A DNA stretch of 64,000 nucleotides. Source: Escherichia coli. Lineage in GTDB: Bacteria; Pseudomonadota; Gammaproteobacteria; Enterobacterales; Enterobacteriaceae. Made by a program: the position numbers and the translations under genes. Position 1 is the stretch's first letter. Every line of letters starts with the position of its first letter. Positions 3,693 through 49,169 of this stretch are shown in pieces. The stretch is from the NCBI RefSeq assembly GCF_050920415.1, contig NZ_CP169309.1; one strand, given 5' to 3'. Under the pieces are notes generated by a model. It was not told where the DNA came from. It saw nothing but the letters and a program-made list of their open reading frames with translations, and made no database searches.

Positions 3693-4547
3693 ATGATGAT
3701 CAATAAACAAAAATTAGTCAACCCTGAAAACTTGCCAGTTATTGAGTGGCAGGGAGTACGTGTAGTTACCACCGAAACGTTGGCGGCGGGATATGGAACA
3801 ACGCCAATCCGTATACAACAGAACTACATTCGAAACGAAGATCGTTTCGTTGAGGGTAAACACTTTTTCAAAATCAGCGGTGATGAGCTGAAATCTTTCC
3901 GACTATCTTTTAGCGAGTCGGTTAATAAACATACAACATCACTTGTCCTCTGGACAGAACGCGGCGCTGCCCGCATGTCAAAAATCGTCGATACAGACGA
4001 GGCCTGGTTGTTCTTCGAAAAAATGGAGCAGGCGTATTTTCGTAAAGCAACGCCTTCTTCAAACACTATTCCAGACTTTGACGATCCGATCGCTGCTGCT
4101 GAAGCGTGGATTGAAGCCAAAAAATCCGAACGCCTTGCTCTCGGGTATGCAGAGCGTCAGGCTCGCTACATCAGCAAACTCGAAAGCCATCTCGCCGATG
4201 GCATCACTCCTGTGCAGTTCTGCAAACAGCTCAACGGTGTAAACACTCGTCAGATTAATGCGTTCCTTGAAGAGCGTAACTGGCTGTATGACGACCGTCC
4301 GGAGGCTATGTATCCGCGCTGGCGTGTAAAAGCGTATGCACGTGACCAATACCTGACTGAGCGTTCTGGGCAGGTTGAGCAGGAAAACGGGGAAATGCGC
4401 GAGATTTTCAAACCACTCCTGAAGAAAAAAGGTGCCGCCTGGTTATATCGCCATTATCTGAACGGCGAACTACCTATGAAGAAAACATGGGATGGGCAAT
4501 TTACCCATAACACTGAGCTCGCGAATCTTTTACAGGAGAGCAAATGA
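3693..4547 (+). CDS. Antirepressor-type protein (ORF6N/KilA-N-like N-terminus, KilAC/Ant-like C-terminus)
   Basis: N-terminus: LPVIEWQGVRVVTTETLAAGYGT...RNEDRFVEGKHFFKISGDELKSF. C-terminus: AEAWIEAKKSERLAL...ITPVQFCKQLNG. AAGGGGA SD. Confidence 0.7.
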   Translation: MMINKQKLVNPENLPVIEWQGVRVVTTETLAAGYGTTPIRIQQNYIRNEDRFVEGKHFFKISGDELKSFRLSFSESVNKHTTSLVLWTERGAARMSKIVDTDEAWLFFEKMEQAYFRKATPSSNTIPDFDDPIAAAEAWIEAKKSERLALGYAERQARYISKLESHLADGITPVQFCKQLNGVNTRQINAFLEERNWLYDDRPEAMYPRWRVKAYARDQYLTERSGQVEQENGEMREIFKPLLKKKGAAWLYRHYLNGELPMKKTWDGQFTHNTELANLLQESK

Positions 4548-4756
4548 TGCAAACCAAGACATGTGTAACTGGTGATGTCGATCTGAAACCTTGCCCGTTC
4601 TGCGGAAATCCGGAAGTACAACTCATTGAGGTGAAATATTTTCTGGATGGCGATGATGGTTATTACGTCGCATGTACTTGCTGTAACGCAAACCAGATTC
4701 CTGATTCGAAAGAACGTGCTGTTCATGACTGGAACCAGCGCGAAAACGCGGATTGA
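4544..4756 (+). CDS. Lar-family restriction-alleviation-like zinc-ribbon protein
   Basis: 70 aa with CPFCG...C.CC and a C-terminal HDWNQR. Resembles the Lar family (Rac Lar), recalled from memory. Start overlaps the upstream stop (ATGA). Confidence 0.55.
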   Translation: MMQTKTCVTGDVDLKPCPFCGNPEVQLIEVKYFLDGDDGYYVACTCCNANQIPDSKERAVHDWNQRENAD

Positions 4757-4792
4757 CGGCGAGTAGGTACAAAATGATCCGCAACCAACATA

Positions 4793-4821
4793 TTGATTCT
4801 GCAATTTCGGGACGTTACACT
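4793..4821 (+). promoter_or_regulatory. Promoter of c4-like cassette A
   Basis: TTGATT (4793-4798), 17 nt, TACACT (4816-4821). Identical hexamers and spacing recur in cassette B, inside a 64-nt block conserved at the nucleotide level. Confidence 0.5.
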
Positions 4822-4934
4822 GTTCCTGCACCTTATAAAGCGGGTGCCGGGGGTCGCAGCCCGGAATTGCATACGGCGATATATGACGCGCCAGCGTCTT
4901 TTTTATCGTCCGCGCTCACGCACGCCAGAATTAT

Positions 4935-5013
4935 GGTGGGCTGGGCAGGGGAGCCGAAAGGCTCGCCGGTTTCCGTATGCGCCGGTACTGCGAACCCTGT
5001 TCAGTTCACCACC
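4935..5013 (+). ncRNA. c4-like antisense RNA, copy A (~79 nt)
   Basis: Terminal stem GGTGG/CCACC and inner stem CAGGG/CCCTG. Hairpin GAGCC-GAAA-GGCTC. Loop tccgtatgc (4972-4980) complements gcatacgga (5052-5060) over the Rha SD. ctgcgaa (4988-4994) complements ttcgcag (5021-5027). Confidence 0.6.
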
Positions 5014-5070
5014 CATGAGTTTCGCAGCTCCGGTGGTGGAAGTTATCCATTGCATACGGAGGCTGCCATC

Positions 5071-5433
5071 ATGGCTACAGTCCCAACTTCCCCATACCTG
5101 AAAATCGAAGTCGTCAACGGCAAAGCTGTTATTTTCTCCCTGCATGTTGCCTGCCACTTTAAGCGCATGCACCAGAACATCGTCGACAAAATCGAGTATC
5201 TGAACTGCTCGCGTGAATTCTTCTCCCGTAATTTCATACCGGGTACTTACCACGTGTATGGCGATTCCCTGCGTGGTTATTACATCACCCTTGATGGCCT
5301 GATGATGCTTCAGCTTGGGTTAAGTCTGCGCACAATGCGGTACTACGAGAGCTGTATTGAAGCATTCCATGAGGCTGAAACCAACCTGAATCACACTGTT
5401 TTCCGTCGTAATCAATGGGAGGTGCGCCCATGA
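5071..5433 (+). CDS. Rha-family phage regulatory/antirepressor protein, copy A (121 aa)
   Basis: GGAGG (5058-5062) lies 8 nt before the ATG at 5071. The pattern VNGKAV.FSL.VA..F.K.H..IV.KI is Phage_pRha-like. The upstream in-frame 106 codons are interpreted as the RNA leader. Confidence 0.7.
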   Translation: MATVPTSPYLKIEVVNGKAVIFSLHVACHFKRMHQNIVDKIEYLNCSREFFSRNFIPGTYHVYGDSLRGYYITLDGLMMLQLGLSLRTMRYYESCIEAFHEAETNLNHTVFRRNQWEVRP

Positions 5434-5445
5434 TTCGCCAACATA

Positions 5446-5474
5446 TTGATTCTGCACTTTTGGGACGTTACACT
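5446..5474 (+). promoter_or_regulatory. Promoter of c4-like cassette B
   Basis: TTGATT (5446-5451), 17 nt, TACACT (5469-5474). Same arrangement as cassette A. Confidence 0.5.
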
Positions 5475-5587
5475 GTCTCTGCACCTTATAAAGCGGGTGC
5501 CGGGATTGGCGTCCTGAAATTCAATATAGAGCATAACCGCGCTCATGCGGTTTTTTCGTGTCATGAGCATTGCTACGCCCAAATTAT

Positions 5588-5666
5588 GGTGGGGCGTGCA
5601 GGGGCATCGCAAGATGCGCCGGGTTCTATGTTGACCGGTTACGCCAACCCTGTACGTCTCACCACC
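5588..5666 (+). ncRNA. c4-like antisense RNA, copy B (~79 nt)
   Basis: Same scaffold as A (GGTGG/CCACC, CAGGG/CCCTG). The hairpin is changed compensatorily to GCATC-GCAA-GATGC. ctatgttga (5626-5634) complements tcaacatag (5704-5712). acgccaa (5641-5647) complements ttggcgt (5674-5680). Confidence 0.6.
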
Positions 5667-5723
5667 TCTGTGATTGGCGTCCCATGTGGTGAGTTCTTTG
5701 AATTCAACATAGGGGCTGTCACC

Positions 5724-6287
5724 ATGACTACTCTCCCAACCCTCTCTCAACCTGAAATTGCGATCGTTGATGGTCAGGCTGTTACATCTTCTTTGGCTGT
5801 TGCTGACTTCTTCTCTAAACGTCATGACGATGTTCTGAAAAAGATCCGCATTTTGGATTGTTCTCCAGAGTTTTGTGCCCGCAATTTTGCGGAGACATCA
5901 ATTTTGGTACACCAGCCCAACGGCGGTACTCGCAAACTTCCTTGCTACCACATCACCCGCGATGGCTTCGCGTTCCTGGCAATGGGCTTTACTGGCAAAC
6001 GTGCAGCCCGGTTCAAAGAGGCATACATCAACGCCTTTAACCAGATGGAGAAGAATTTATCTGGTGCTGACGCGGTTGATATGTCAGCTGTTGCACGAAA
6101 CGCCAGAGGCGTATACCTGCATTTGCGTGAAATCCATCAAATCTGGATAAGCCAGCTTTATCCAATGCTTAAGGCCGTTGAGTCACCGCTGGCTGGCAAA
6201 CTGTACGACCGTGTAGGTGATGCTGTTTTTGGTGCTGCACTTGTTGATTCCAGACTGAATGGTTCTGACAAGGAGGTGCGCCCATGA
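5724..6287 (+). CDS. Rha-family phage regulatory/antirepressor protein, copy B (187 aa)
   Basis: IVDGQAVTSSLAVADFFSKRHDDVLKKIRIL...ITRDGFAFLAMGFTGKRAARFKEAYINAFNQME is a typical Rha (Phage_pRha) domain. The ATG at 5724 follows an AGGGG SD. Confidence 0.8.
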   Translation: MTTLPTLSQPEIAIVDGQAVTSSLAVADFFSKRHDDVLKKIRILDCSPEFCARNFAETSILVHQPNGGTRKLPCYHITRDGFAFLAMGFTGKRAARFKEAYINAFNQMEKNLSGADAVDMSAVARNARGVYLHLREIHQIWISQLYPMLKAVESPLAGKLYDRVGDAVFGAALVDSRLNGSDKEVRP

Positions 6288-6517
6288 TCCGCCACATCGT
6301 TAATTCCCTGTATCACCGATACAACCGTTGCCCCCGGGTGGGGCAGTGGTTCACCACCAGCAACGGCCACGTTCTGCGGGTTTGCCTGGTCAATACAGAA
6401 AGCCAGAAGGTTGTCTGCCAGGTTCAGGGACGTACTCATACCCTGAGTTATCCGCTGGTGGCGTTTCAGTCCGGAAAAATGTTTAAACGCCTGGGAGGTG
6501 GCTATGCGTCCGTCTGA
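6284..6517 (+). CDS. Hypothetical 77-aa protein
   Basis: Starts at the third copy of the GGAGGTGCGCCCATGAT junction. Overlaps the O-like gene start. Confidence 0.45.
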   Translation: MIRHIVNSLYHRYNRCPRVGQWFTTSNGHVLRVCLVNTESQKVVCQVQGRTHTLSYPLVAFQSGKMFKRLGGGYASV

Positions 6518-7412
6518 TCTTCTGCTCGATTTTGGACATCCGGTTGCTTATTACCCTGGGCTCGTTAAATACATGGGAAGTCCGCACGCTGTTATTTTCT
6601 TTGGTCAGATTTTTTACTGGCAGGATAAAGCACATGCAGCGGAAGGCGTACATAAAACGCGTGAAGAGATACAACACGAAACCGGACTTACATTTGAACA
6701 ACAGGCTGTAGCGCGTAAGCATCTTGTGTCCAGAGGCATTTTGGTTGAAACCAACAAGCGTCTTGAGCACAAAATGTTCTACCGTATAGATTGTGAGCGC
6801 CTTAATGAAATTATCAATGAAAACAATCAGTTTTCCCGAAATGGGGAAACCCGTTTTCGGGAAACTGTAAAACCCAATTTCGCGGAGGAGGGAAAGCCTT
6901 CACCGCGGACACGGGAAACCCCTCGCCGCGGAGAAGGGAAAACCAATTTCGATCTTACAGAGAATACAACAGAGATTACTTCAGAGAATACTACAGAGAG
7001 TAAAAACACTATTGGCGCATCCGCTGACGCGTCTGCACCAGCACGTTCTGCCCGACAGGAATATTCACCGGAATTTGAACAGGCCTGGCAGGAATATCCC
7101 AAACGTGCTGGTGGTAATTCCAAGTCAGCAGCCTTCAAAGCCTGGAAAGCCCGTATCAGGGAGGGAATAAAACCGGAGACCATGCTTGATGGTGTGAAGC
7201 GGTATGCCGCCTGGGTACGTGCTACAGGAAATACCGGCACACAGTTCGTGAAGCAGGCTGCGACGTTCTTTGGACCCGATCGTCACTTCGAAGATTACTG
7301 GCAACAGCCAGCCGCTCCCGGAGGTGGGCGACAGCGACAGGTCGATGTCCTGGCTGGCCTGGGAGCCATGTCTGACAAATTCGGTAAATCCAGTGACAAA
7401 CTGACATTCTGA
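6504..7412 (+). CDS. Replication initiator, O-like (contains the presumed origin)
   Basis: GGGAGGTGG SD before the ATG at 6504. Sits ahead of the DnaC-like and DnaB-like genes. Iteron cluster lies inside the gene, as in lambda O. The C-terminal motif EFEQAWQEYPKR is common in phage replication proteins. Confidence 0.65.
   Translation: MRPSDLLLDFGHPVAYYPGLVKYMGSPHAVIFFGQIFYWQDKAHAAEGVHKTREEIQHETGLTFEQQAVARKHLVSRGILVETNKRLEHKMFYRIDCERLNEIINENNQFSRNGETRFRETVKPNFAEEGKPSPRTRETPRRGEGKTNFDLTENTTEITSENTTESKNTIGASADASAPARSARQEYSPEFEQAWQEYPKRAGGNSKSAAFKAWKARIREGIKPETMLDGVKRYAAWVRATGNTGTQFVKQAATFFGPDRHFEDYWQQPAAPGGGRQRQVDVLAGLGAMSDKFGKSSDKLTF
6830..6995. repeat. Putative ori: GGGAAA(N)C iterons plus an A/T-rich direct-repeat tract inside the O-like gene
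   Basis: GGGAAAC-type repeats at 6843, 6859, 6890, 6913 and 6936. Inverted gttttccc at 6830. CCAATTTCG occurs twice. cagagaatac occurs twice (6958, 6982). Confidence 0.5.
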
Positions 7413-11886: not shown

Positions 11887-11911
11887 AGAAAACCCCCAGC
11901 TAGGCTGGGGG
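11887..11911 (-). terminator. Intrinsic terminator, minus strand
   Basis: CCCCCAGC-cta-GCTGGGGG followed by TTTTCT on the minus strand. Back to back with the plus-strand terminator. Confidence 0.5.
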
Positions 11912-12037
11912 TTCCGGAAAGCTTTCAGCTTTGAGCCAGTTATTAAAACCCCTTTTGATTTGTTAAAACACCTTGCGGTCTGGCAACTTCTTAACTCACT
12001 TATTGTTTCCACCCATGTTTTTGGATACCTGCTGTAG

Positions 12038-12074: not shown

Positions 12075-12362
12075 ACAACGAATCCTTCTGATCTGCTTTT
12101 GCGGGGCTTTTTTGTATCCGCTCCATGCCCGGCGTATAAGCGGAGGTTGGTCAGTTTTCTAAAAATTGAAATACCTCACAATTCAGCCAGTTAATGGTTG
12201 TTTGTCTGGCGAAGAGTTTGTAAATAAAAAAACGCATGGTGAATCCCCCTAAGCGGCGGGGCGAATCAGCAGTCAGTTCTGGGATAATCGCGGGTTCGTA
12301 TGCTGATGCCGGACTCACCGGGAGGCACCCGGCACCATGCATCATGGTCATCCCCTTGTATG

Positions 12363-12389
12363 ATACCCCTCTCCGGAGGGGTATTTTTT
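12363..12389 (+). terminator. Intrinsic terminator
   Basis: ATACCCCTC-tccg-GAGGGGTAT followed by T6. Confidence 0.75.
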
Positions 12390-12393
12390 GGAT

Positions 12394-43549: not shown

Positions 43550-44161
43550 GTGATAGGCAGACTCAGAGGCATCATCATTGAAAAACAACCCCCGCTGGTA
43601 TTAATTGAAGTGGGCGGCGTAGGCTATGAAGTGCATATGCCGATGACCTGTTTTTATGAACTCCCTGAAGCGGGTCAGGAAGCGATCGTTTTCACCCACT
43701 TTGTGGTGCGTGAAGACGCGCAACTGCTGTACGGTTTTAACAATAAACAAGAGCGCACGTTGTTCAAAGAGTTGATCAAAACCAACGGCGTTGGGCCTAA
43801 ACTGGCATTGGCAATCCTCTCCGGAATGTCAGCGCAGCAGTTCGTTAATGCCGTTGAGCGTGAAGAAGTCGGGGCTCTGGTGAAACTGCCGGGTATTGGC
43901 AAAAAAACCGCCGAACGCTTGATTGTCGAAATGAAAGACCGATTTAAAGGTTTACATGGCGATCTCTTTACGCCAGCTGCCGACCTGGTACTCACGTCAC
44001 CTGCCAGCCCGGCGACCGACGATGCTGAACAGGAAGCGGTTGCCGCGTTGGTGGCGCTGGGCTATAAACCACAAGAAGCAAGCCGGATGGTGAGCAAAAT
44101 CGCTCGCCCTGACGCCAGCAGTGAAACATTAATTCGTGAAGCCCTGCGCGCCGCGTTATGA
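43550..44161 (+). CDS. ruvA: Holliday junction branch migration complex subunit RuvA
   Basis: GTG start. [27 protein letters not shown]..., 203 aa. Confidence 0.95.
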
Positions 44162-44166
44162 GGTAA

Positions 44167-45180
<1,014 letters not shown>

Positions 45181-45221
45181 GTTGAATAAGGCATTCAAGC
45201 CGCTTCCGACATTGGCGATAA

Positions 45222-47387
<2,166 letters not shown>

Positions 47388-47391
<4 letters not shown>

Positions 47392-48143
47392 GAGCGATCA
47401 TTTCCCCGACGCAAAACAATTCGTCCCTGTAAATCGTGACGATGATTATGATGATGGCGATAGATACCCAGTTGTTCAGCACCACGAGGACCAAACATAG
47501 AAATAAACTCCGGATGCAGGGAAACAACTTCCGGTGTGCCGGAACAACAAATGTGGTGATTCAGGCAAAGCACTTCATCGGTTTTTGCCATTACCAAATG
47601 CAGATCGTGAGACACCATTAAAACGCCACAATCCAGTTCGCGACGCAGTTGGTCAATAAGGTCATACAGCGCTACCTGACCATTTACATCCACGCCCTGA
47701 GTGGGTTCATCCAGCACTAATAATTGCGGTCGATTTAACAATGCTCGTGCTAACAGTACACGCTGCGTTTCGCCACCAGAGAGCTTTTGCATCGGTGCGT
47801 TAATAAGATGCCCGGCCTGGACACGTTTCAGTGCAGGCAAAATATCTTCTTTATGTGTTCCAGGGCGTAAGCGTAAAAAACGGTTTACGGTCAGTGGCAA
47901 AGTGGTGTCGAGATACAGCTTCTGCGGTACATAGCCGATGCGCAGTTTTCCGTTGCGCTTGATAACCCCTTCATCGGGTGTTACCAGCCCGAGCACTACC
48001 CGTACCAGTGTCGACTTACCTGCGCCATTTGGCCCAAGTAAAGTCAAAATTTTTCCAGGTTTAAGTTCCAGCGACACATCAGAGAGGACGCGGCGTTGGC
48101 CAAAAGAAACCGAGACATTTTCCAGGGAAACCAGACTTGTCAT
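47388..48143 (-). CDS. znuC: Zinc ABC transporter ATP-binding protein
   Basis: Walker [10 protein letters not shown], signature LSGGE, Walker B LLVLDEP. Confidence 0.95.
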
Positions 48144-48169
48144 GTTAATTTTAGTCTTGCAGTAGTCAT

Positions 48170-48192
48170 GAAATGTTATAATATCACACTTC
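48170..48192. promoter_or_regulatory. Zur box in the znuA/znuCB divergent promoter region
   Basis: GAAATGTTATAATATCACACTTC resembles the Zur palindrome GAAATGTTATAnTATAACATTTC. Confidence 0.65.
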
Positions 48193-48221
48193 TCATATTC
48201 ATTACGATGATTGGTCGCATT

Positions 48222-49154
48222 ATGTTACATAAAAAAACGCTTCTTTTCGCAGCATTATCTGCCGCTCTCTGGGGCGGTGCAACTCAGGCCGCAGATGCCG
48301 CCGTTGTCGCTTCGCTTAAACCCATTGGGTTCATCGCATCTGCCATTGCTGCTGGGGTAACAGAAACGGAGGTTTTACTTCCTGACGGCGCTTCAGAACA
48401 TGATTATTCACTGCGTCCATCAGATGTAAAACGCTTACAGAACGCGGACTTAGTTGTTTGGGTTGGCCCGGAGATGGAAGCGTTCATGCAAAAACCGGTA
48501 AGTAAATTACCTGAAGCCAAACAGGTAACGATTGCGCAGCTAGAGAATGTGAAACCGCTGCTGATGAAAAGTATTCACGGAGATGATGATGATCACGACC
48601 ACGCAGAAAAAAGTGACGAAGATCACCATCACGGCGATTTCAACATGCATCTTTGGCTTTCCCCAGAGATAGCGCGGGCTACAGCGGTTGCAATCCATGG
48701 AAAATTAGTGGAACTTATGCCGCAAAGTCGAGCCAAACTTGACGCCAACCTGAAGGATTTTGAGGCACAATTAGCCTCAACCGAAAAGCAGGTTGGTAAC
48801 GAGCTCGCGCCGCTCAAGGGGAAAGGTTATTTCGTTTTTCACGATGCTTACGGCTATTTCGAAAAACAGTTCGGACTGACACCGCTTGGTCATTTTACCG
48901 TTAACCCTGAGATTCAACCTGGCGCGCAGCGTTTACATGAAATAAGAACACAGTTGGTTGAGCAAAAAGCAACCTGCGTTTTTGCTGAGCCACAGTTCAG
49001 GCCAGCGGTCGTTGAGAGCGTCGCACGAGGGACATCCGTTCGTATGGGAACGTTGGATCCCCTGGGGACGAATATCAAACTGGGTAAAACAAGCTATTCA
49101 GAATTCCTGAATCAATTAGCCAACCAGTATGCGAGCTGCCTGAAAGGAGATTAA
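48222..49154 (+). CDS. znuA: Periplasmic zinc-binding protein
   Basis: ATG at 48222 gives [23 protein letters not shown]. His/Asp-rich loop [21 protein letters not shown]. Confidence 0.95.
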
Positions 49155-49169
49155 TGAGGAAGTGATTAC

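What the first reader, a model, noticed from the sequence alone, without database searches (positions are those of the whole stretch)
4788..6294. Two tandem, specificity-diverged c4-like antisense RNA / Rha antirepressor switches (P1 immI logic) in a lambdoid prophage
Each of two adjacent cassettes has the same layout. A conserved 64-nt block (4788-4852 and 5441-5504) holds a TTGATT-17-TACACT promoter. Short boxes a1 and b1 follow, then a roughly 79-nt structured RNA, then boxes a2 and b2, then a Rha-family gene.

The RNA scaffold is conserved between copies (GGTGG...CCACC and CAGGG...CCCTG). Its first hairpin differs by three compensatory base-pair changes while keeping a GNRA loop: GAGCC-GAAA-GGCTC in A and GCATC-GCAA-GATGC in B.

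The two single-stranded segments of each RNA are perfectly complementary to that cassette's own downstream boxes.
- Copy A: tccgtatgc (4972-4980) pairs with gcatacgga (5052-5060), which overlaps the GGAGG SD of the gene starting at 5071. ctgcgaa (4988-4994) pairs with ttcgcag (5021-5027).
- Copy B: ctatgttga (5626-5634) pairs with tcaacatag (5704-5712), next to the SD of the gene starting at 5724. acgccaa (5641-5647) pairs with ttggcgt (5674-5680).

Near-copies of both boxes also lie upstream. In A these are tcgcag at 4854 and gcatacgg at 4869. In B they are attggcgtcc at 5505 and tcaatatag at 5521; the single difference in the last one keeps a G-U pair.

Box spacing is conserved between copies. 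The box order (RNA 5'-b'-a'-3' against mRNA 5'-a2-b2-3') is antiparallel-consistent. The sequences are unrelated between copies, so the two RNAs should not cross-react.

This is the architecture described for the P1/P7 c4 RNA, which represses icd/ant. Here it is duplicated, attached to Rha-type genes, and sits in the early-right operon of a lambda-like phage.
Basis: partly seen in the sequence, partly recalled or inferred. Interest (0 to 1): 0.85.

Follow-up and report, generated by a model that had tools for sequence, protein, structure and literature searches.

The report
Tandem orthogonal C4/IsrK RNA switches
An E. coli lambda-like prophage carries two back-to-back copies of a known phage RNA switch (phage P1's c4 antisense RNA plus its IsrK-type decoy), each tuned to recognise only its own Rha-family gene; the switch is well known, but orthogonal tandem arrays of it appear not to have been described.

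Summary
Rfam finds C4 antisense RNA at 4929-5016 and 5582-5669 (83 and 80 bits, threshold 45). It also finds an IsrK-type sRNA with its own terminator upstream of each. Every claimed pairing is present.

Across 128 related cassettes the a' and b' loops co-vary with their four target boxes. About 89% of positions pair, against 31-52% when partners are slid. Box spacing matches P1's annotated immI almost to the nucleotide. The P1 immI reading is therefore right.

The cassette itself is not new. It is the curated C4/c4-a1b1/isrK family. Gifsy-1's studied isrK-orf45-anrP locus is one of them, and 339 phage records carry C4 relatives.

The added findings are:
- Tandem arrays of two or three cassettes recur (11 distinct arrays), and no two members share an a' or b' loop.
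- The a and b specificities reassort freely.
- The "Ash domain" annotated over the leader shows no coding signature.
- A co-varying alternative helix would present a2 in a loop.

Expression, RNase P processing, repression and any antirepressor role of the Rha proteins are inferred, not shown.

The parts
4793..4821 (+). Cassette A promoter-like element TTGATT-17-TACACT, 7 nt upstream of the IsrK-A 5' end
   Evidence: Read from the sequence. It is nearly invariant among 44 related cassettes. It aligns with Gifsy-1 PisrK, TTGACA-17-TATATT, whose deletion abolishes IsrK and STnc1160 (PMC4825925). It matches only 8/12 consensus positions and was not called by the scanner.
4828..4904 (+). IsrK-type sRNA A. 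It carries a1 (4854-4859, in the loop of hairpin 2) and b1 (4869-4876, linker), and ends in an intrinsic terminator (stem 4885-4898 plus T-run)
   Evidence: Rfam isrK 58.8 bits, threshold 50. Terminator called. Fold. a1:a' and b1:b' covariation.
4935..5013 (+). C4-A antisense RNA, about 79 nt by homology with P1 c4 ends (Rfam hit 4929-5016). b' loop 4972-4980, a' junction 4988-4994
   Evidence: Rfam C4 83.3 bits, threshold 45. Fold z = -4.4 with b' in a hairpin loop and a' unpaired. Stem covariation. The AAUUAU|GGUGGG context is identical to the annotated P1 c4 5' end.
5021..5062 (+). Cassette A target region: a2 (5021-5027), a copy of the C4 5' stem strand (5032-5040), and b2 (5052-5060) overlapping the GGAGG Shine-Dalgarno (5058-5062)
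   Evidence: Perfect complements. Conserved positions family-wide. b':b2 and a':a2 covariation. The alternative helix 5005-5013 with 5032-5040 co-varies.
5071..5433 (+). Rha-A, a 120-aa short Rha-domain protein. This is the regulated gene of cassette A
   Evidence: Pfam Phage_pRha 30.7 bits, cut-off 29.9. NCBIfam 40.1, below 45.95. 38% identical to Rha-B, E = 4e-22. Clear codon-position signature 0.144/0.138/0.393.
4774..5070 (+). Leader A read as an ORF (the 'Ash' frame), in frame with and fused to Rha-A. The orf45-equivalent AUG is at 4933
   Evidence: Pfam Phage_ASH 56.6 bits. PGAP calls homologues 'ash family protein'. There is no codon-position signature, 0.538/0.525/0.486. The gene's frame is open upstream in 56-67% of cassettes, against 5% and 34% for the other frames.
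5446..5474 (+). Cassette B promoter-like element TTGATT-17-TACACT
   Evidence: Same as for cassette A.
5481..5557 (+). IsrK-type sRNA B. It carries a1 (5506-5512) and b1 (5521-5529, one G-U), with a terminator stem at 5535-5552 plus T-run
   Evidence: Rfam isrK 61.9 bits. Terminator. Fold.
5588..5666 (+). C4-B antisense RNA (Rfam hit 5582-5669). b' 5626-5634, a' 5641-5647. The a' segment is identical to that of Gifsy-1
   Evidence: Rfam C4 80.1 bits. Fold z = -5.3. Gifsy-1 comparison.
5674..5715 (+). Cassette B target region: a2 (5674-5680), 5'-strand copy (5686-5693), and b2 (5704-5712) abutting the AGGGG Shine-Dalgarno
5724..6287 (+). Rha-B, a 187-aa Rha-family protein. This is the regulated gene of cassette B
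   Evidence: Pfam Phage_pRha 95 bits. TIGR02681 90.9 bits. PHROG 821/995 'transcriptional regulator', with weaker 'anti-repressor' families.
5419..5440 (+). Cassette junction GGAGGTGCGCCC-ATGA-TTCGCC. The Rha-A stop overlaps the AUG of leader B. The same junction recurs at 6273-6294 into the 77-aa ORF 6284-6517
   Evidence: All junctions in the E. coli O121 triple array overlap by 4 nt.

Best explanation
The region holds two complete, adjacent, mutually orthogonal RNA immunity cassettes of the phage P1 immI type.

Each cassette consists of:
- a weak sigma-70 promoter;
- a 77-nt IsrK-type sRNA that carries the a1 and b1 boxes and ends in an intrinsic terminator;
- an approximately 79-nt C4 antisense RNA made from read-through transcripts;
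- the a2 and b2 boxes, with b2 over the ribosome-binding site;
- a Rha-family gene.

Inferred mechanism, taken from P1/P7 c4 and Gifsy-1 IsrK. C4 is cut out of the read-through transcript, with RNase P making its 5' end at AAUUAU|GGUGGG. Its b' hairpin loop and a' junction pair with b2 and a2, which blocks translation of the Rha gene. IsrK carries the same boxes and competes for C4 or for the C4 segment of the mRNA, which turns translation on. The ratio of terminated to read-through transcripts therefore sets the state.

Because a' and b' both differ between the two cassettes, each RNA should address only its own gene, plus any co-resident or incoming phage with the same a+b address.

Shown here: family membership, structure, loop-box co-evolution, positions, and orthogonality in silico.
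Inferred: transcription, processing, repression, and what the Rha proteins do.
For: - Rfam: C4 scores 83.3 and 80.1 bits (threshold 45); isrK scores 58.8 and 61.9 (threshold 50).
- All pairings are exact.
- The C4 RNAs fold with b' and a' unpaired, z = -4.4 and -5.3.
- Terminators are called at both IsrK 3' ends.
- In 128 unique cassettes with 55 b' and 28 a' classes, cognate loops pair with their own flanks. Median runs are 9, 7, 8 and 7 nt, against 4-5 nt for non-cognate flanks.
- a2 starts 0-3 nt after C4, and b2 ends 9-11 nt before the start codon.
- Column counts: 89.4% of cells pair (shuffles 73.2%, slid 37-52%), and 33 of 43 pairs change on both sides. For a1:a' and b1:b', 89.5% pair against 60.3% in shuffles.
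- Spacing against P1's annotated a1, b1, c4, a2, b2 and icd is nearly identical.
- Gifsy-1's isrK-orf45-anrP contains C4 (69 bits) and c4-a1b1 hits.
- In Gifsy-1, IsrK in trans raises anrP translation about 140-fold. The compensatory mutations G28A/C162U and G31A/C159U fall, by my mapping, in a1:a'. An approximately 80-nt processed species is seen (PMC4825925).
- IsrK and STnc1160 are highly expressed in lysogens (PMC7067206).
- Orthogonality: cross-pairing matrices are diagonal. b' duplex energies are -23.2 and -17.8 kcal/mol cognate, against -11.5 and -8.3 cross.
Against: - There are no expression or processing data for this locus.
- The promoter matches only 8/12 consensus positions and was not called by the scanner.
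- The a' 7-mers are not individually significant at this locus.
- The c4-a1b1 Rfam model is sub-threshold here (22.6 and 18.4, threshold 46.7).
- The Gifsy-1 authors explain their data by cis structural switching plus IsrK activation, not by a trans-acting C4. Constitutive orf45/STnc1160 did not relieve IsrK toxicity.
- The leader is an open frame fused to the Rha gene, so translation through the RNA elements may matter.
- An antirepressor function of Rha proteins is not established.
Confidence: 0.78

Rival explanations
1. Control resembles the Gifsy-1 model, or acts only in cis. The IsrK and C4 segments are parts of one leader that folds into an inactive long-range structure (a1:a', b1:b' in cis). 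Short IsrK acts in trans as an activator by displacing that structure. The excised C4 RNA is a by-product rather than a trans repressor.
For: - PMC4825925 reports native-gel conformers, about 140-fold activation by IsrK, and a requirement for orf45 translation. Constitutive orf45/STnc1160 did not counteract IsrK.
- The minimum-free-energy fold of the full A leader (4828-5100) pairs the IsrK boxes with the C4 loops in cis.
- The upstream pairs co-vary as strongly as the downstream ones.
Against: - a2 and b2 co-vary with a' and b' and sit at a fixed distance from the start codon. A purely upstream cis switch does not need that.
- P1/P7 genetics established c4 as a trans-acting repressor that defines heteroimmunity (as summarised in PMC5320573 and PMC12197685).
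- A stable approximately 80-nt species exists in Gifsy-1.
Confidence: 0.25
2. Control is of the P4 type. The C4-like RNA acts mainly on transcription termination, as P4 CI RNA does with seqA/seqC. It would gate read-through of the two IsrK terminators and so control expression of the replication genes just downstream.
For: - The C4 and isrK models detect P4 CI and seqA relatives (PMC10111431). The Gifsy-1 authors raise the same idea.
- Two intrinsic terminators lie between cro and the O/DnaC/DnaB-like genes.
Against: - b2 overlaps the Shine-Dalgarno at a fixed 9-11 nt from the start codon in nearly all cassettes. That is the P1 translational arrangement.
- In Gifsy-1 the cassette sits after Q, not before replication genes.
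- In P1, the transcriptional effect is said to follow from translational repression. This is from my memory of Biere et al. 1992 and was not checked here.
Confidence: 0.15
3. The long ORFs 4774-5433 and 5430-6287 are ordinary protein genes (Ash-Rha fusion proteins), and the RNA features are incidental.
For: - PGAP, Pfam and PHROGs all model the leader as protein: Phage_ASH 56.6 and 44.4 bits, and PHROG 995/821 profiles that span leader plus Rha.
- The frame is open in 56-67% of cassettes.
- ATGA stop/start overlaps occur at cassette junctions.
Against: - The leader has no codon-position signature (0.538/0.525/0.486), while the adjoining Rha gene has a strong one (0.144/0.138/0.393).
- Compensatory stem changes and loop-box covariation are unexplained by coding.
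- One third of cassettes have stops or a frame shift. In Gifsy-1, orf45 is a separate short ORF whose amino-acid sequence is not conserved.
- The G+C-rich C4 scaffold is intrinsically poor in stop codons.
Confidence: 0.04
4. The tandem arrangement is a neutral product of recombination at the conserved cassette borders among co-resident prophages. On this view the non-overlap of specificities is not selected.
For: - Cassette borders are conserved: an approximately 64-nt 5' block and the GGAGGTGCGCCCATGA junction.
- Array size varies between close relatives: two cassettes here, three in E. coli O121 at 93% identity.
- The orthogonality test is only modest. P = 0.0096 when shuffling array members, but 0.09 when drawing from all cassettes. 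It rests on 11 arrays that are not phylogenetically independent.
Against: - None of 15 within-array pairs share a' or b', although a few classes dominate the pool.
- Arrays often keep near-identical 120-aa genes (90-96% identity) under different RNA addresses. Direct repeats with identical addresses would also be expected to collapse by recombination, so survivorship and selection are hard to separate.
Confidence: 0.3

Closest known systems
Phage P1/P7 immI: c4 antisense RNA controlling icd-ant (Rfam RF01695 C4, RF03163 c4-a1b1)
   Same: - The order is the same: promoter, a1, b1, C4, a2, b2, start codon.
- Spacing, P1 versus this window: -10 to a1 is 32 versus 32-33 nt; a1 to b1 is 14 versus 15; a2 to b2 is 29 versus 31; b2 end to AUG is 10 nt in both.
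- The 5'-end context AAUUAU|GGUGGG is the same.
- b' lies in a hairpin loop and a' in a junction.
- A hairpin plus T-run lies between b1 and c4 in both.

   Different: - The regulated gene is a Rha-family gene, not icd-ant1/ant2.
- The cassette sits in a lambdoid early-right operon rather than behind a C1 operator.
- The a1/b1 leader scores as isrK here (59-62 bits), not as c4-a1b1 (18-23 bits). P1 is the reverse, at 35 and 51 bits.
- Two cassettes lie in tandem here.
Salmonella Gifsy-1 isrK-orf45(STnc1160)-anrP locus (Hershko-Shalev et al. 2016, PMC4825925)
   Same: - The RNA leader is homologous. The isrK, C4 and a2/b2 architecture is confirmed in Gifsy-1 by Rfam and by alignment.
- The a' segment TTACGCCAA is identical to cassette B's.
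- Both are lambdoid prophages.
- The orf45 AUG lies in the C4 5' strand in both.
   Different: - Gifsy-1 has a single cassette, located downstream of Q in the late region.
- orf45 there is a separate short ORF coupled to anrP by AUGA. Here it is fused in frame to Rha.
- AnrP is an ORF6N-type protein. It has no BLASTP similarity to Rha-A or Rha-B. It is 47% identical to the window's uncontrolled upstream gene 3693-4547.
- The paper does not call the element c4.
Satellite phage P4 immunity: CI RNA with seqA/seqB/seqC
   Same: A processed small RNA flanked by complementary target sites. [quoted passage not shown] Pfam's Ash family is named after P4 (PMC8951638).
   Different: P4 CI acts by premature transcription termination on an untranslated leader upstream of replication genes. 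Here b2 covers a ribosome-binding site.
C4/isrK pairs in APSE phages of Hamiltonella and C4-like Group 1 sRNAs of Acinetobacter baumannii
   Same: - APSE phages carry one C4 and one isrK next to a BRO-family gene, with a'/b' matches upstream of it (PMC7313666; APSE-8 annotation).
- A. baumannii has many C4-like RNAs per genome that differ in a' and appear to be processed at GGW (PMC5320573).
   Different: APSE carries a single cassette. The A. baumannii copies are dispersed, and they are not described as tandem cassettes each carrying its own cognate target gene.

Membership tests
Rfam C4 antisense RNA (RF01695) | Covariance-model score at or above the curated gathering threshold (45 bits) | tested here: met
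   83.3 bits (4929-5016) and 80.1 bits (5582-5669), full-length 1-87/87. P1's own c4 scores 68.8.
Rfam C4 antisense RNA (RF01695) | Long closing stem enclosing two hairpins, supported by compensatory changes | tested here: met
   Folds, z = -4.4 and -5.3. Stems are 93-98.5% paired across 124 distinct sequences. Hairpin 1 has changes on both sides in 5/5 pairs, and the long stem in 11/13.
P1-type immI logic | Unpaired a' and b' segments complementary to downstream a2 and b2, with b2 at the ribosome-binding site | tested here: met
   Exact complements. b2 ends 9-11 nt before the start codon family-wide. b':b2 is 78-80% paired with 7/9 pairs changed on both sides; a':a2 is 77-81% paired with 6/7.
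P1-type immI logic | Second set of target boxes, a1 and b1, upstream of the RNA | tested here: met
   Boxes at 4854-4859, 4869-4876, 5506-5512 and 5521-5529. 89.5% paired against 60.3% in shuffles, with 13/15 pairs changed on both sides.
P1-type immI logic | Spacing of promoter, a1, b1, c4, a2, b2 and start codon as in annotated P1 | tested here: met
   P1 record features compared with window coordinates. Each interval differs by at most 2 nt, except b1 to c4, which is 74 nt in P1 and 66 nt here.
P1-type immI logic | RNA released from a longer transcript by RNase P as an approximately 77-nt species that represses in trans | not testable with these tools
   Only the conserved cleavage context AAUUAU|GGUGGG and published Northern evidence for an approximately 80-nt species in Gifsy-1.
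P1/P7 immI operon in the strict sense | Regulated genes are icd and ant1/ant2 | tested here: not met
   The downstream genes are Rha-family, and no icd-like ORF is present. This is therefore the same RNA module on a different gene.
Rfam isrK (RF01394) | Covariance-model score at or above 50 bits, with a Rho-independent terminator at the 3' end | tested here: met
   58.8 and 61.9 bits, full length. Terminators at 4885-4898 and 5535-5552 plus T-runs. Hfq binding is not testable.
Rfam c4-a1b1 (RF03163) | Covariance-model score at or above 46.7 bits | tested here: not met
   18.4 and 22.6 bits. P1 scores 51.0 and Gifsy-1 48.1. The boxes are present, but this leader is of the isrK sequence type.
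Rha family (Pfam PF09669, NCBIfam TIGR02681) | Profile score above the curated cut-off | tested here: met
   Rha-B: 95 bits (cut-off 29.9) and 90.9 bits (cut-off 45.95). Rha-A: 30.7 bits, just above the Pfam cut-off, but 40.1 bits, below the NCBIfam cut-off. Rha-A is homologous to Rha-B at E = 4e-22.
Phage antirepressor (functional class) | Binds and inactivates a prophage repressor | not testable with these tools
   Only weaker PHROG 'anti-repressor' matches (phrog_373, phrog_63) and a sub-threshold P22_AR_C hit.
Pfam Phage_ASH (PF10554) as a protein domain | Sequence conserved because of selection on the encoded protein | tested here: not met
   The profile matches (56.6 and 44.4 bits). However, the leader shows no third-position excess (0.538/0.525/0.486), while the adjacent gene does (0.144/0.138/0.393).
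Lambdoid prophage, early-right region | Divergent S24 repressor and Cro-like genes followed by replication genes; lambda-type morphogenesis genes | tested here: met
   The host flank is E. coli (aspS, zwf, pyk, ruvB).

The most novel reading that the evidence does not exclude
The tandem cassettes form a multi-channel RNA immunity and sensing array with two-key (a x b) addressing.

Each C4 would silence any co-resident or superinfecting phage whose Rha/Ant cassette carries the same a+b address. This is heteroimmunity in the P1/P7 sense, multiplied.

Conversely, a burst of matching IsrK decoy from an invader would titrate the resident C4 and release the resident Rha protein.

Free reassortment of the a and b classes, and the absence of shared addresses within arrays, would then reflect diversifying selection in a community of competing prophages.

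A linked possibility concerns the codon-neutral but open leader frame. It may let ribosomes coming from upstream genes read through and disable the IsrK terminators and the C4 fold during lytic transcription.
Probability: 0.22. Interest if true: 0.7.

Novelty: new variant of a known kind. Interest (0 to 1): 0.45.

Why it matters
The single cassette is textbook P1 biology and a curated Rfam family, so there is no new mechanism here. Three points have practical value.

1. Natural arrays of two or three orthogonal copies, with a and b specificities that reassort (55 b' and 28 a' classes seen), are a ready-made library of non-cross-reacting translational RNA switches. They also suggest RNA-level cross-talk or heteroimmunity among the many lambdoid and Stx prophages of E. 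coli. About 30% of complete E. coli genomes carry at least one cassette.

2. The 'Ash domain of unknown function' discussed for Stx-phage regulatory regions appears to be the translated shadow of the IsrK-C4 leader. That changes how those genes should be annotated and studied.

3. Recognising Gifsy-1 isrK-orf45-anrP as a C4 cassette links two bodies of literature, P1 c4 repression and IsrK activation, that describe the same module from opposite sides.

Tried and rejected
- The first IMG/VR pattern used a 9-nt b' spacer. The window has 8 nt, so the pattern could not match its own copies. I redid it with a variable gap.
Only about 40 of 120 loci were genuine C4, mostly Pseudomonas. It therefore did not give an independent sample of enteric arrays.
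- The consensus promoter scanner did not call the proposed promoters.
- BLASTP of Rha-B against Gifsy-1 AnrP found nothing. Only shared weak PHROG families link them.
- A PDB sequence search with Rha-B found nothing meaningful. I did not predict structures.
- A search of the whole window for additional a2+b2 target pairs found none.
- Entropy along the cassette is higher in the six boxes (0.84 against 0.56), but variability is not confined to them.
- The ATGATYCG coupled-start motif occurs in only 14 of 128 cassettes, mainly inner array members, so it is not a general feature.
- I could not retrieve the other cassette copies within array-bearing genomes, because the search tool lists only one place per record. 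Co-resident address matching was therefore not tested.
- Literature searches found no description of tandem C4 arrays. The library covers only open-access PMC and bioRxiv.

Full report
**1. The observation**

I read 4500-6600 and checked each claimed coordinate by script. All are exact.

The two conserved blocks, 4788-4852 and 5441-5504, differ at 4 of 64 positions. They hold TTGATT-17-TACACT at 4793-4798/4816-4821 and 5446-5451/5469-5474.

In cassette A:
- TCCGTATGC (4972-4980) is the perfect complement of GCATACGGA (5052-5060).
- CTGCGAA (4988-4994) is the perfect complement of TTCGCAG (5021-5027).

In cassette B:
- CTATGTTGA (5626-5634) pairs with TCAACATAG (5704-5712).
- ACGCCAA (5641-5647) pairs with TTGGCGT (5674-5680).

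Upstream copies lie at 4854-4859, 4869-4876, 5506-5512 and 5521-5529. With G-U pairs allowed, b'/b2 extends to 15 bp in A, across the GGAGG, and to 11 bp in B.

The b' duplex energies are -23.2 and -17.8 kcal/mol. They beat 499 and 497 of 500 shuffled targets. The 7-nt a' pairings do not stand out at this single locus, since 81 and 65 of 500 shuffles do as well.

**2. What the RNAs are**

A gathering-threshold Rfam scan of the whole window gives four relevant hits:
- C4 antisense RNA at 4929-5016 (83.3 bits) and 5582-5669 (80.1 bits), with a threshold of 45 and both full length.
- isrK at 4828-4904 (58.8 bits) and 5481-5557 (61.9 bits), with a threshold of 50.

The a1/b1 segment is therefore a discrete IsrK-type sRNA. 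Both copies end in hairpins followed by T-runs, which the terminator scan calls.

Both C4 RNAs fold as the family consensus. b' lies in a hairpin loop and a' in the multiloop junction, with z = -4.4 and -5.3.

The promoter is weaker evidence. It matches 8 of 12 consensus positions and was not called. However, it is nearly invariant among relatives. It also aligns with Gifsy-1's TTGACA-17-TATATT upstream of isrK.

**3. Comparative test**

I collected 120 IMG/VR loci with a C4-core pattern, plus E. coli and phage records. A profile search over these found 150 C4 copies.

From 128 unique cassettes with 55 b' and 28 a' classes:

| Pairing | Cognate median run | Non-cognate median run | Cognate runs of 7 nt or more | Non-cognate runs of 7 nt or more |
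|---|---|---|---|---|
| b' with downstream flank | 9 nt | 5 nt | 84% | 4.5% |
| a' with downstream flank | 7 nt | 4 nt | 91% | 1.7% |
| b' with upstream flank | 8 nt | 5 nt | 59% | 1.9% |
| a' with upstream flank | 7 nt | 4 nt | 86% | 4.1% |

Counted per distinct loop class, 42 of 55 b' classes and 23 of 28 a' classes have a cognate downstream match of at least 7 nt. Positions are fixed: a2 begins 0-3 nt after C4, and b2 ends 9-11 nt before a start codon preceded by a Shine-Dalgarno.

A formal column count on a 128-sequence alignment (A2) gave the following for the C4 stems plus b':b2 and a':a2:
- 89.4% of cells pair, against 73.2% in shuffles (0/500 reach it) and 37-52% when partners are slid.
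- 33 of 43 pairs change on both sides.
- The covariation score is 0.453, against 0.186.

For a1:a' and b1:b':
- 89.5% of cells pair, against 60.3% in shuffles.
- The covariation score is 0.641, against 0.170.

These sequences are related, so the shuffle control overstates significance. The slide control, which keeps relatedness, is equally clear.

**4. Comparison with P1 and Gifsy-1**

P1's GenBank record annotates a1, b1, c4, a2, b2 and icd. The intervals, P1 versus cassette A:

| Interval | P1 | Cassette A |
|---|---|---|
| -10 to a1 | 32 nt | 32-33 nt |
| a1 to b1 | 14 nt | 15 nt |
| a2 to b2 | 29 nt | 31 nt |
| Nucleotides between b2 and the AUG | 10 | 10 |

P1 c4 begins at GGTGGGG directly after AATTAT, the same context as here. 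That places the mature RNAs at 4935-5013 and 5588-5666, 79 nt each.

P1's leader also has an isrK-like hairpin with a T-run. Its scores are isrK 35.1, c4-a1b1 51.0 and C4 68.8.

In Gifsy-1, Rfam finds isrK, c4-a1b1 and a C4 hit (69 bits) inside 'orf45'. The a' segment there is identical to cassette B's. The experimentally studied isrK-orf45-anrP locus is therefore the same module.

That study showed the following (PMC4825925):
- read-through of the IsrK terminator;
- about 140-fold activation of anrP translation by IsrK in trans;
- compensatory mutations that, by my mapping of their positions, fall in the a1:a' pairing;
- an approximately 80-nt processed species, STnc1160.

IsrK and STnc1160 are highly expressed in lysogens (PMC7067206).

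**5. How common it is**

C4 relatives occur in 339 phage records, including many Stx phages, phiP27 and APSE. The region matches 1,621 of 5,426 complete E. coli genomes, and 48 of these hold most of the two-cassette query. The best match is only 93% identical, in an O121 strain.

The cassette is thus a known and widespread kind. [quoted passage not shown]

**6. What is less ordinary: arrays**

Eighteen of about 130 loci carry two or more C4 copies on one strand. Eleven distinct arrays have cassette spacing of 360-869 nt, mostly 653-659 nt. Two are triples, in E. coli O121 and in one IMG/VR contig, and Rfam confirms them.

In all arrays the cross-pairing matrix is diagonal, at 8-11 nt against 3-6 nt. 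None of the 15 within-array pairs share an a' or a b' class. The probability of that is 0.0096 when array members are shuffled and 0.09 when drawing from all cassettes. This is suggestive rather than conclusive, because the arrays are related.

Several arrays keep 90-96% identical 120-aa Rha-like genes under different RNA addresses.

The a and b classes reassort. One b' occurs with up to four a' classes, and all four combinations exist for four pairs of a' classes. In every combination all six sites match. I found no description of such arrays in the searchable literature.

**7. The long ORFs**

The leaders are open and in frame with the Rha genes (4774-5433 and 5430-6287). PGAP names homologues 'ash family protein'. 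Pfam Phage_ASH matches the leader translations at 56.6 and 44.4 bits, and the PHROG 995 and 821 profiles span leader plus Rha. Stx-phage work treats Ash as a domain of unknown function (PMC8951638).

In 23 cassettes with the 120-aa gene, codon-position entropy is 0.144/0.138/0.393 in the gene but 0.538/0.525/0.486 in the leader. Excluding the boxes, the leader gives 0.465/0.446/0.444. The leader therefore shows no protein-level constraint.

The frame is open in 56-67% of cassettes, against 5% and 34% for the other two frames. The C4 scaffold is intrinsically poor in stop codons, and a third of cassettes break the frame. Whether ribosomes traverse the leader remains open. In Gifsy-1, translation of orf45 is required for anrP expression.

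**8. The regulated genes and the context**

Rha-B (187 aa) is a clear Rha-family protein. Rha-A (120 aa) is a short paralogue, 38% identical at E = 4e-22. It is marginal by Pfam and below the NCBIfam cut-off.

'Antirepressor' is only a label of weaker PHROG matches. Gifsy-1 AnrP shows no BLASTP similarity to either protein. It is 47% identical to the window's upstream ORF6N/KilAC gene 3693-4547, which has no cassette.

Across the family, Rha-like genes are the largest regulated class, with 54 distinct proteins, but several unrelated small proteins also occur. The RNA module is therefore portable.

The window is a lambdoid prophage next to aspS in E. coli.

**9. An extra structural element**

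Between a2 and b2 lies a copy of the C4 5' stem strand, at 5032-5040 in A and 5686-5693 in B. It can pair with the C4 3' strand (5005-5013 in A, 5658-5665 in B). Across the family this helix is 88.1% paired, against 79.5% in shuffles and 34-70% when slid. All 9 pairs change on both sides. P1 has it too, with 8 of 9 pairs by my reading.

The helix would place a2 in an 18-nt loop and would compete with the C4 closing stem. Its role is unknown.

**10. Verdict**

Both the observation and the interpretation hold. The cassettes are new members of a known family. The orthogonal tandem arrangement with reassorting two-part addresses is a variant that I could not find described. Function rests on homology with P1 and Gifsy-1 and is not shown for this locus.

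Noticed in passing
window 5005-5013 with 5032-5040 (A); 5658-5665 with 5686-5693 (B): A conserved downstream copy of the C4 5' stem strand can pair with the C4 3' strand. This forms an alternative hairpin that holds a2 in its loop. The helix co-varies across 124 sequences (88.1% paired, 9/9 pairs changed on both sides) and is also present in P1. Its function is unknown.
   Followed up: partly
window 4774-5070 and 5430-5723; Pfam PF10554, PHROG 995/821: The 'Ash family' protein models match the translated IsrK-C4 leader. The leader has no codon-position signature, whereas the adjacent Rha gene has a strong one. The Ash 'domain' looks like a by-product of RNA conservation.
   Followed up: yes
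cassettes in loci L001, L015, L023, L034, L069, L078, L117, L132 and the window: The a and b specificities reassort independently. The same b' occurs with up to four a' classes, and all four combinations exist for four pairs of a' classes. Because the six sites interleave (a1 b1 b' a' a2 b2), each swap needs several exchange tracts or coordinated mutations. How this happens is unexplained.
   Followed up: partly
window 5419-5440 and 6273-6294; L001 junctions at 2345, 3001, 3657, 4514: A conserved junction, GGAGGTGCGCCC-ATGA-TYCGCC, joins each cassette to the next ORF by a stop/start overlap. It also leads into the 77-aa ORF 6284-6517 (phrog_1153, unknown function), which starts with the same MIR residues. 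It is likely both a recombination border and a translational coupling site.
   Followed up: partly
window 3693-4547 (+): This ORF6N + KilAC protein lies directly after the Cro-like gene. It is 47% identical over 116 aa to Gifsy-1 AnrP, the gene under IsrK/C4 control in Salmonella. Here it has no cassette and no a2/b2-like sites.
   Followed up: partly
window 11891-12005 and 12205-12393 (+): Rfam hits to STnc490 (72.3 bits) and STnc100 (114.5 bits), two prophage-associated sRNAs, lie further along the same prophage. STnc100 also occurs in the triple-array contig L034.
   Followed up: no
window 5612-5583 (-): A promoter-like site on the minus strand (TTGCGA-18-CATAAT, 9/12) lies inside C4-B. It is present only in B and is within chance expectation for the region (1 found, 2.0 expected).
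   Followed up: no
window 44000-56000: The host flank (zwf, pyk, mepM, ruvB, IS621) is 100% identical to E. coli strain MFDS1022581. No complete E. coli genome matches the cassette pair at better than 93%. This particular combination of cassettes is therefore rare even though its parts are common.
   Followed up: no
L244 5017 and 5614 (-); L135: Outside the enterics (Pseudomonas and other Proteobacteria), genuine C4 copies keep a2 0-6 nt and b2 about 25-35 nt after the RNA. One locus has two copies 597 nt apart.
   Followed up: no
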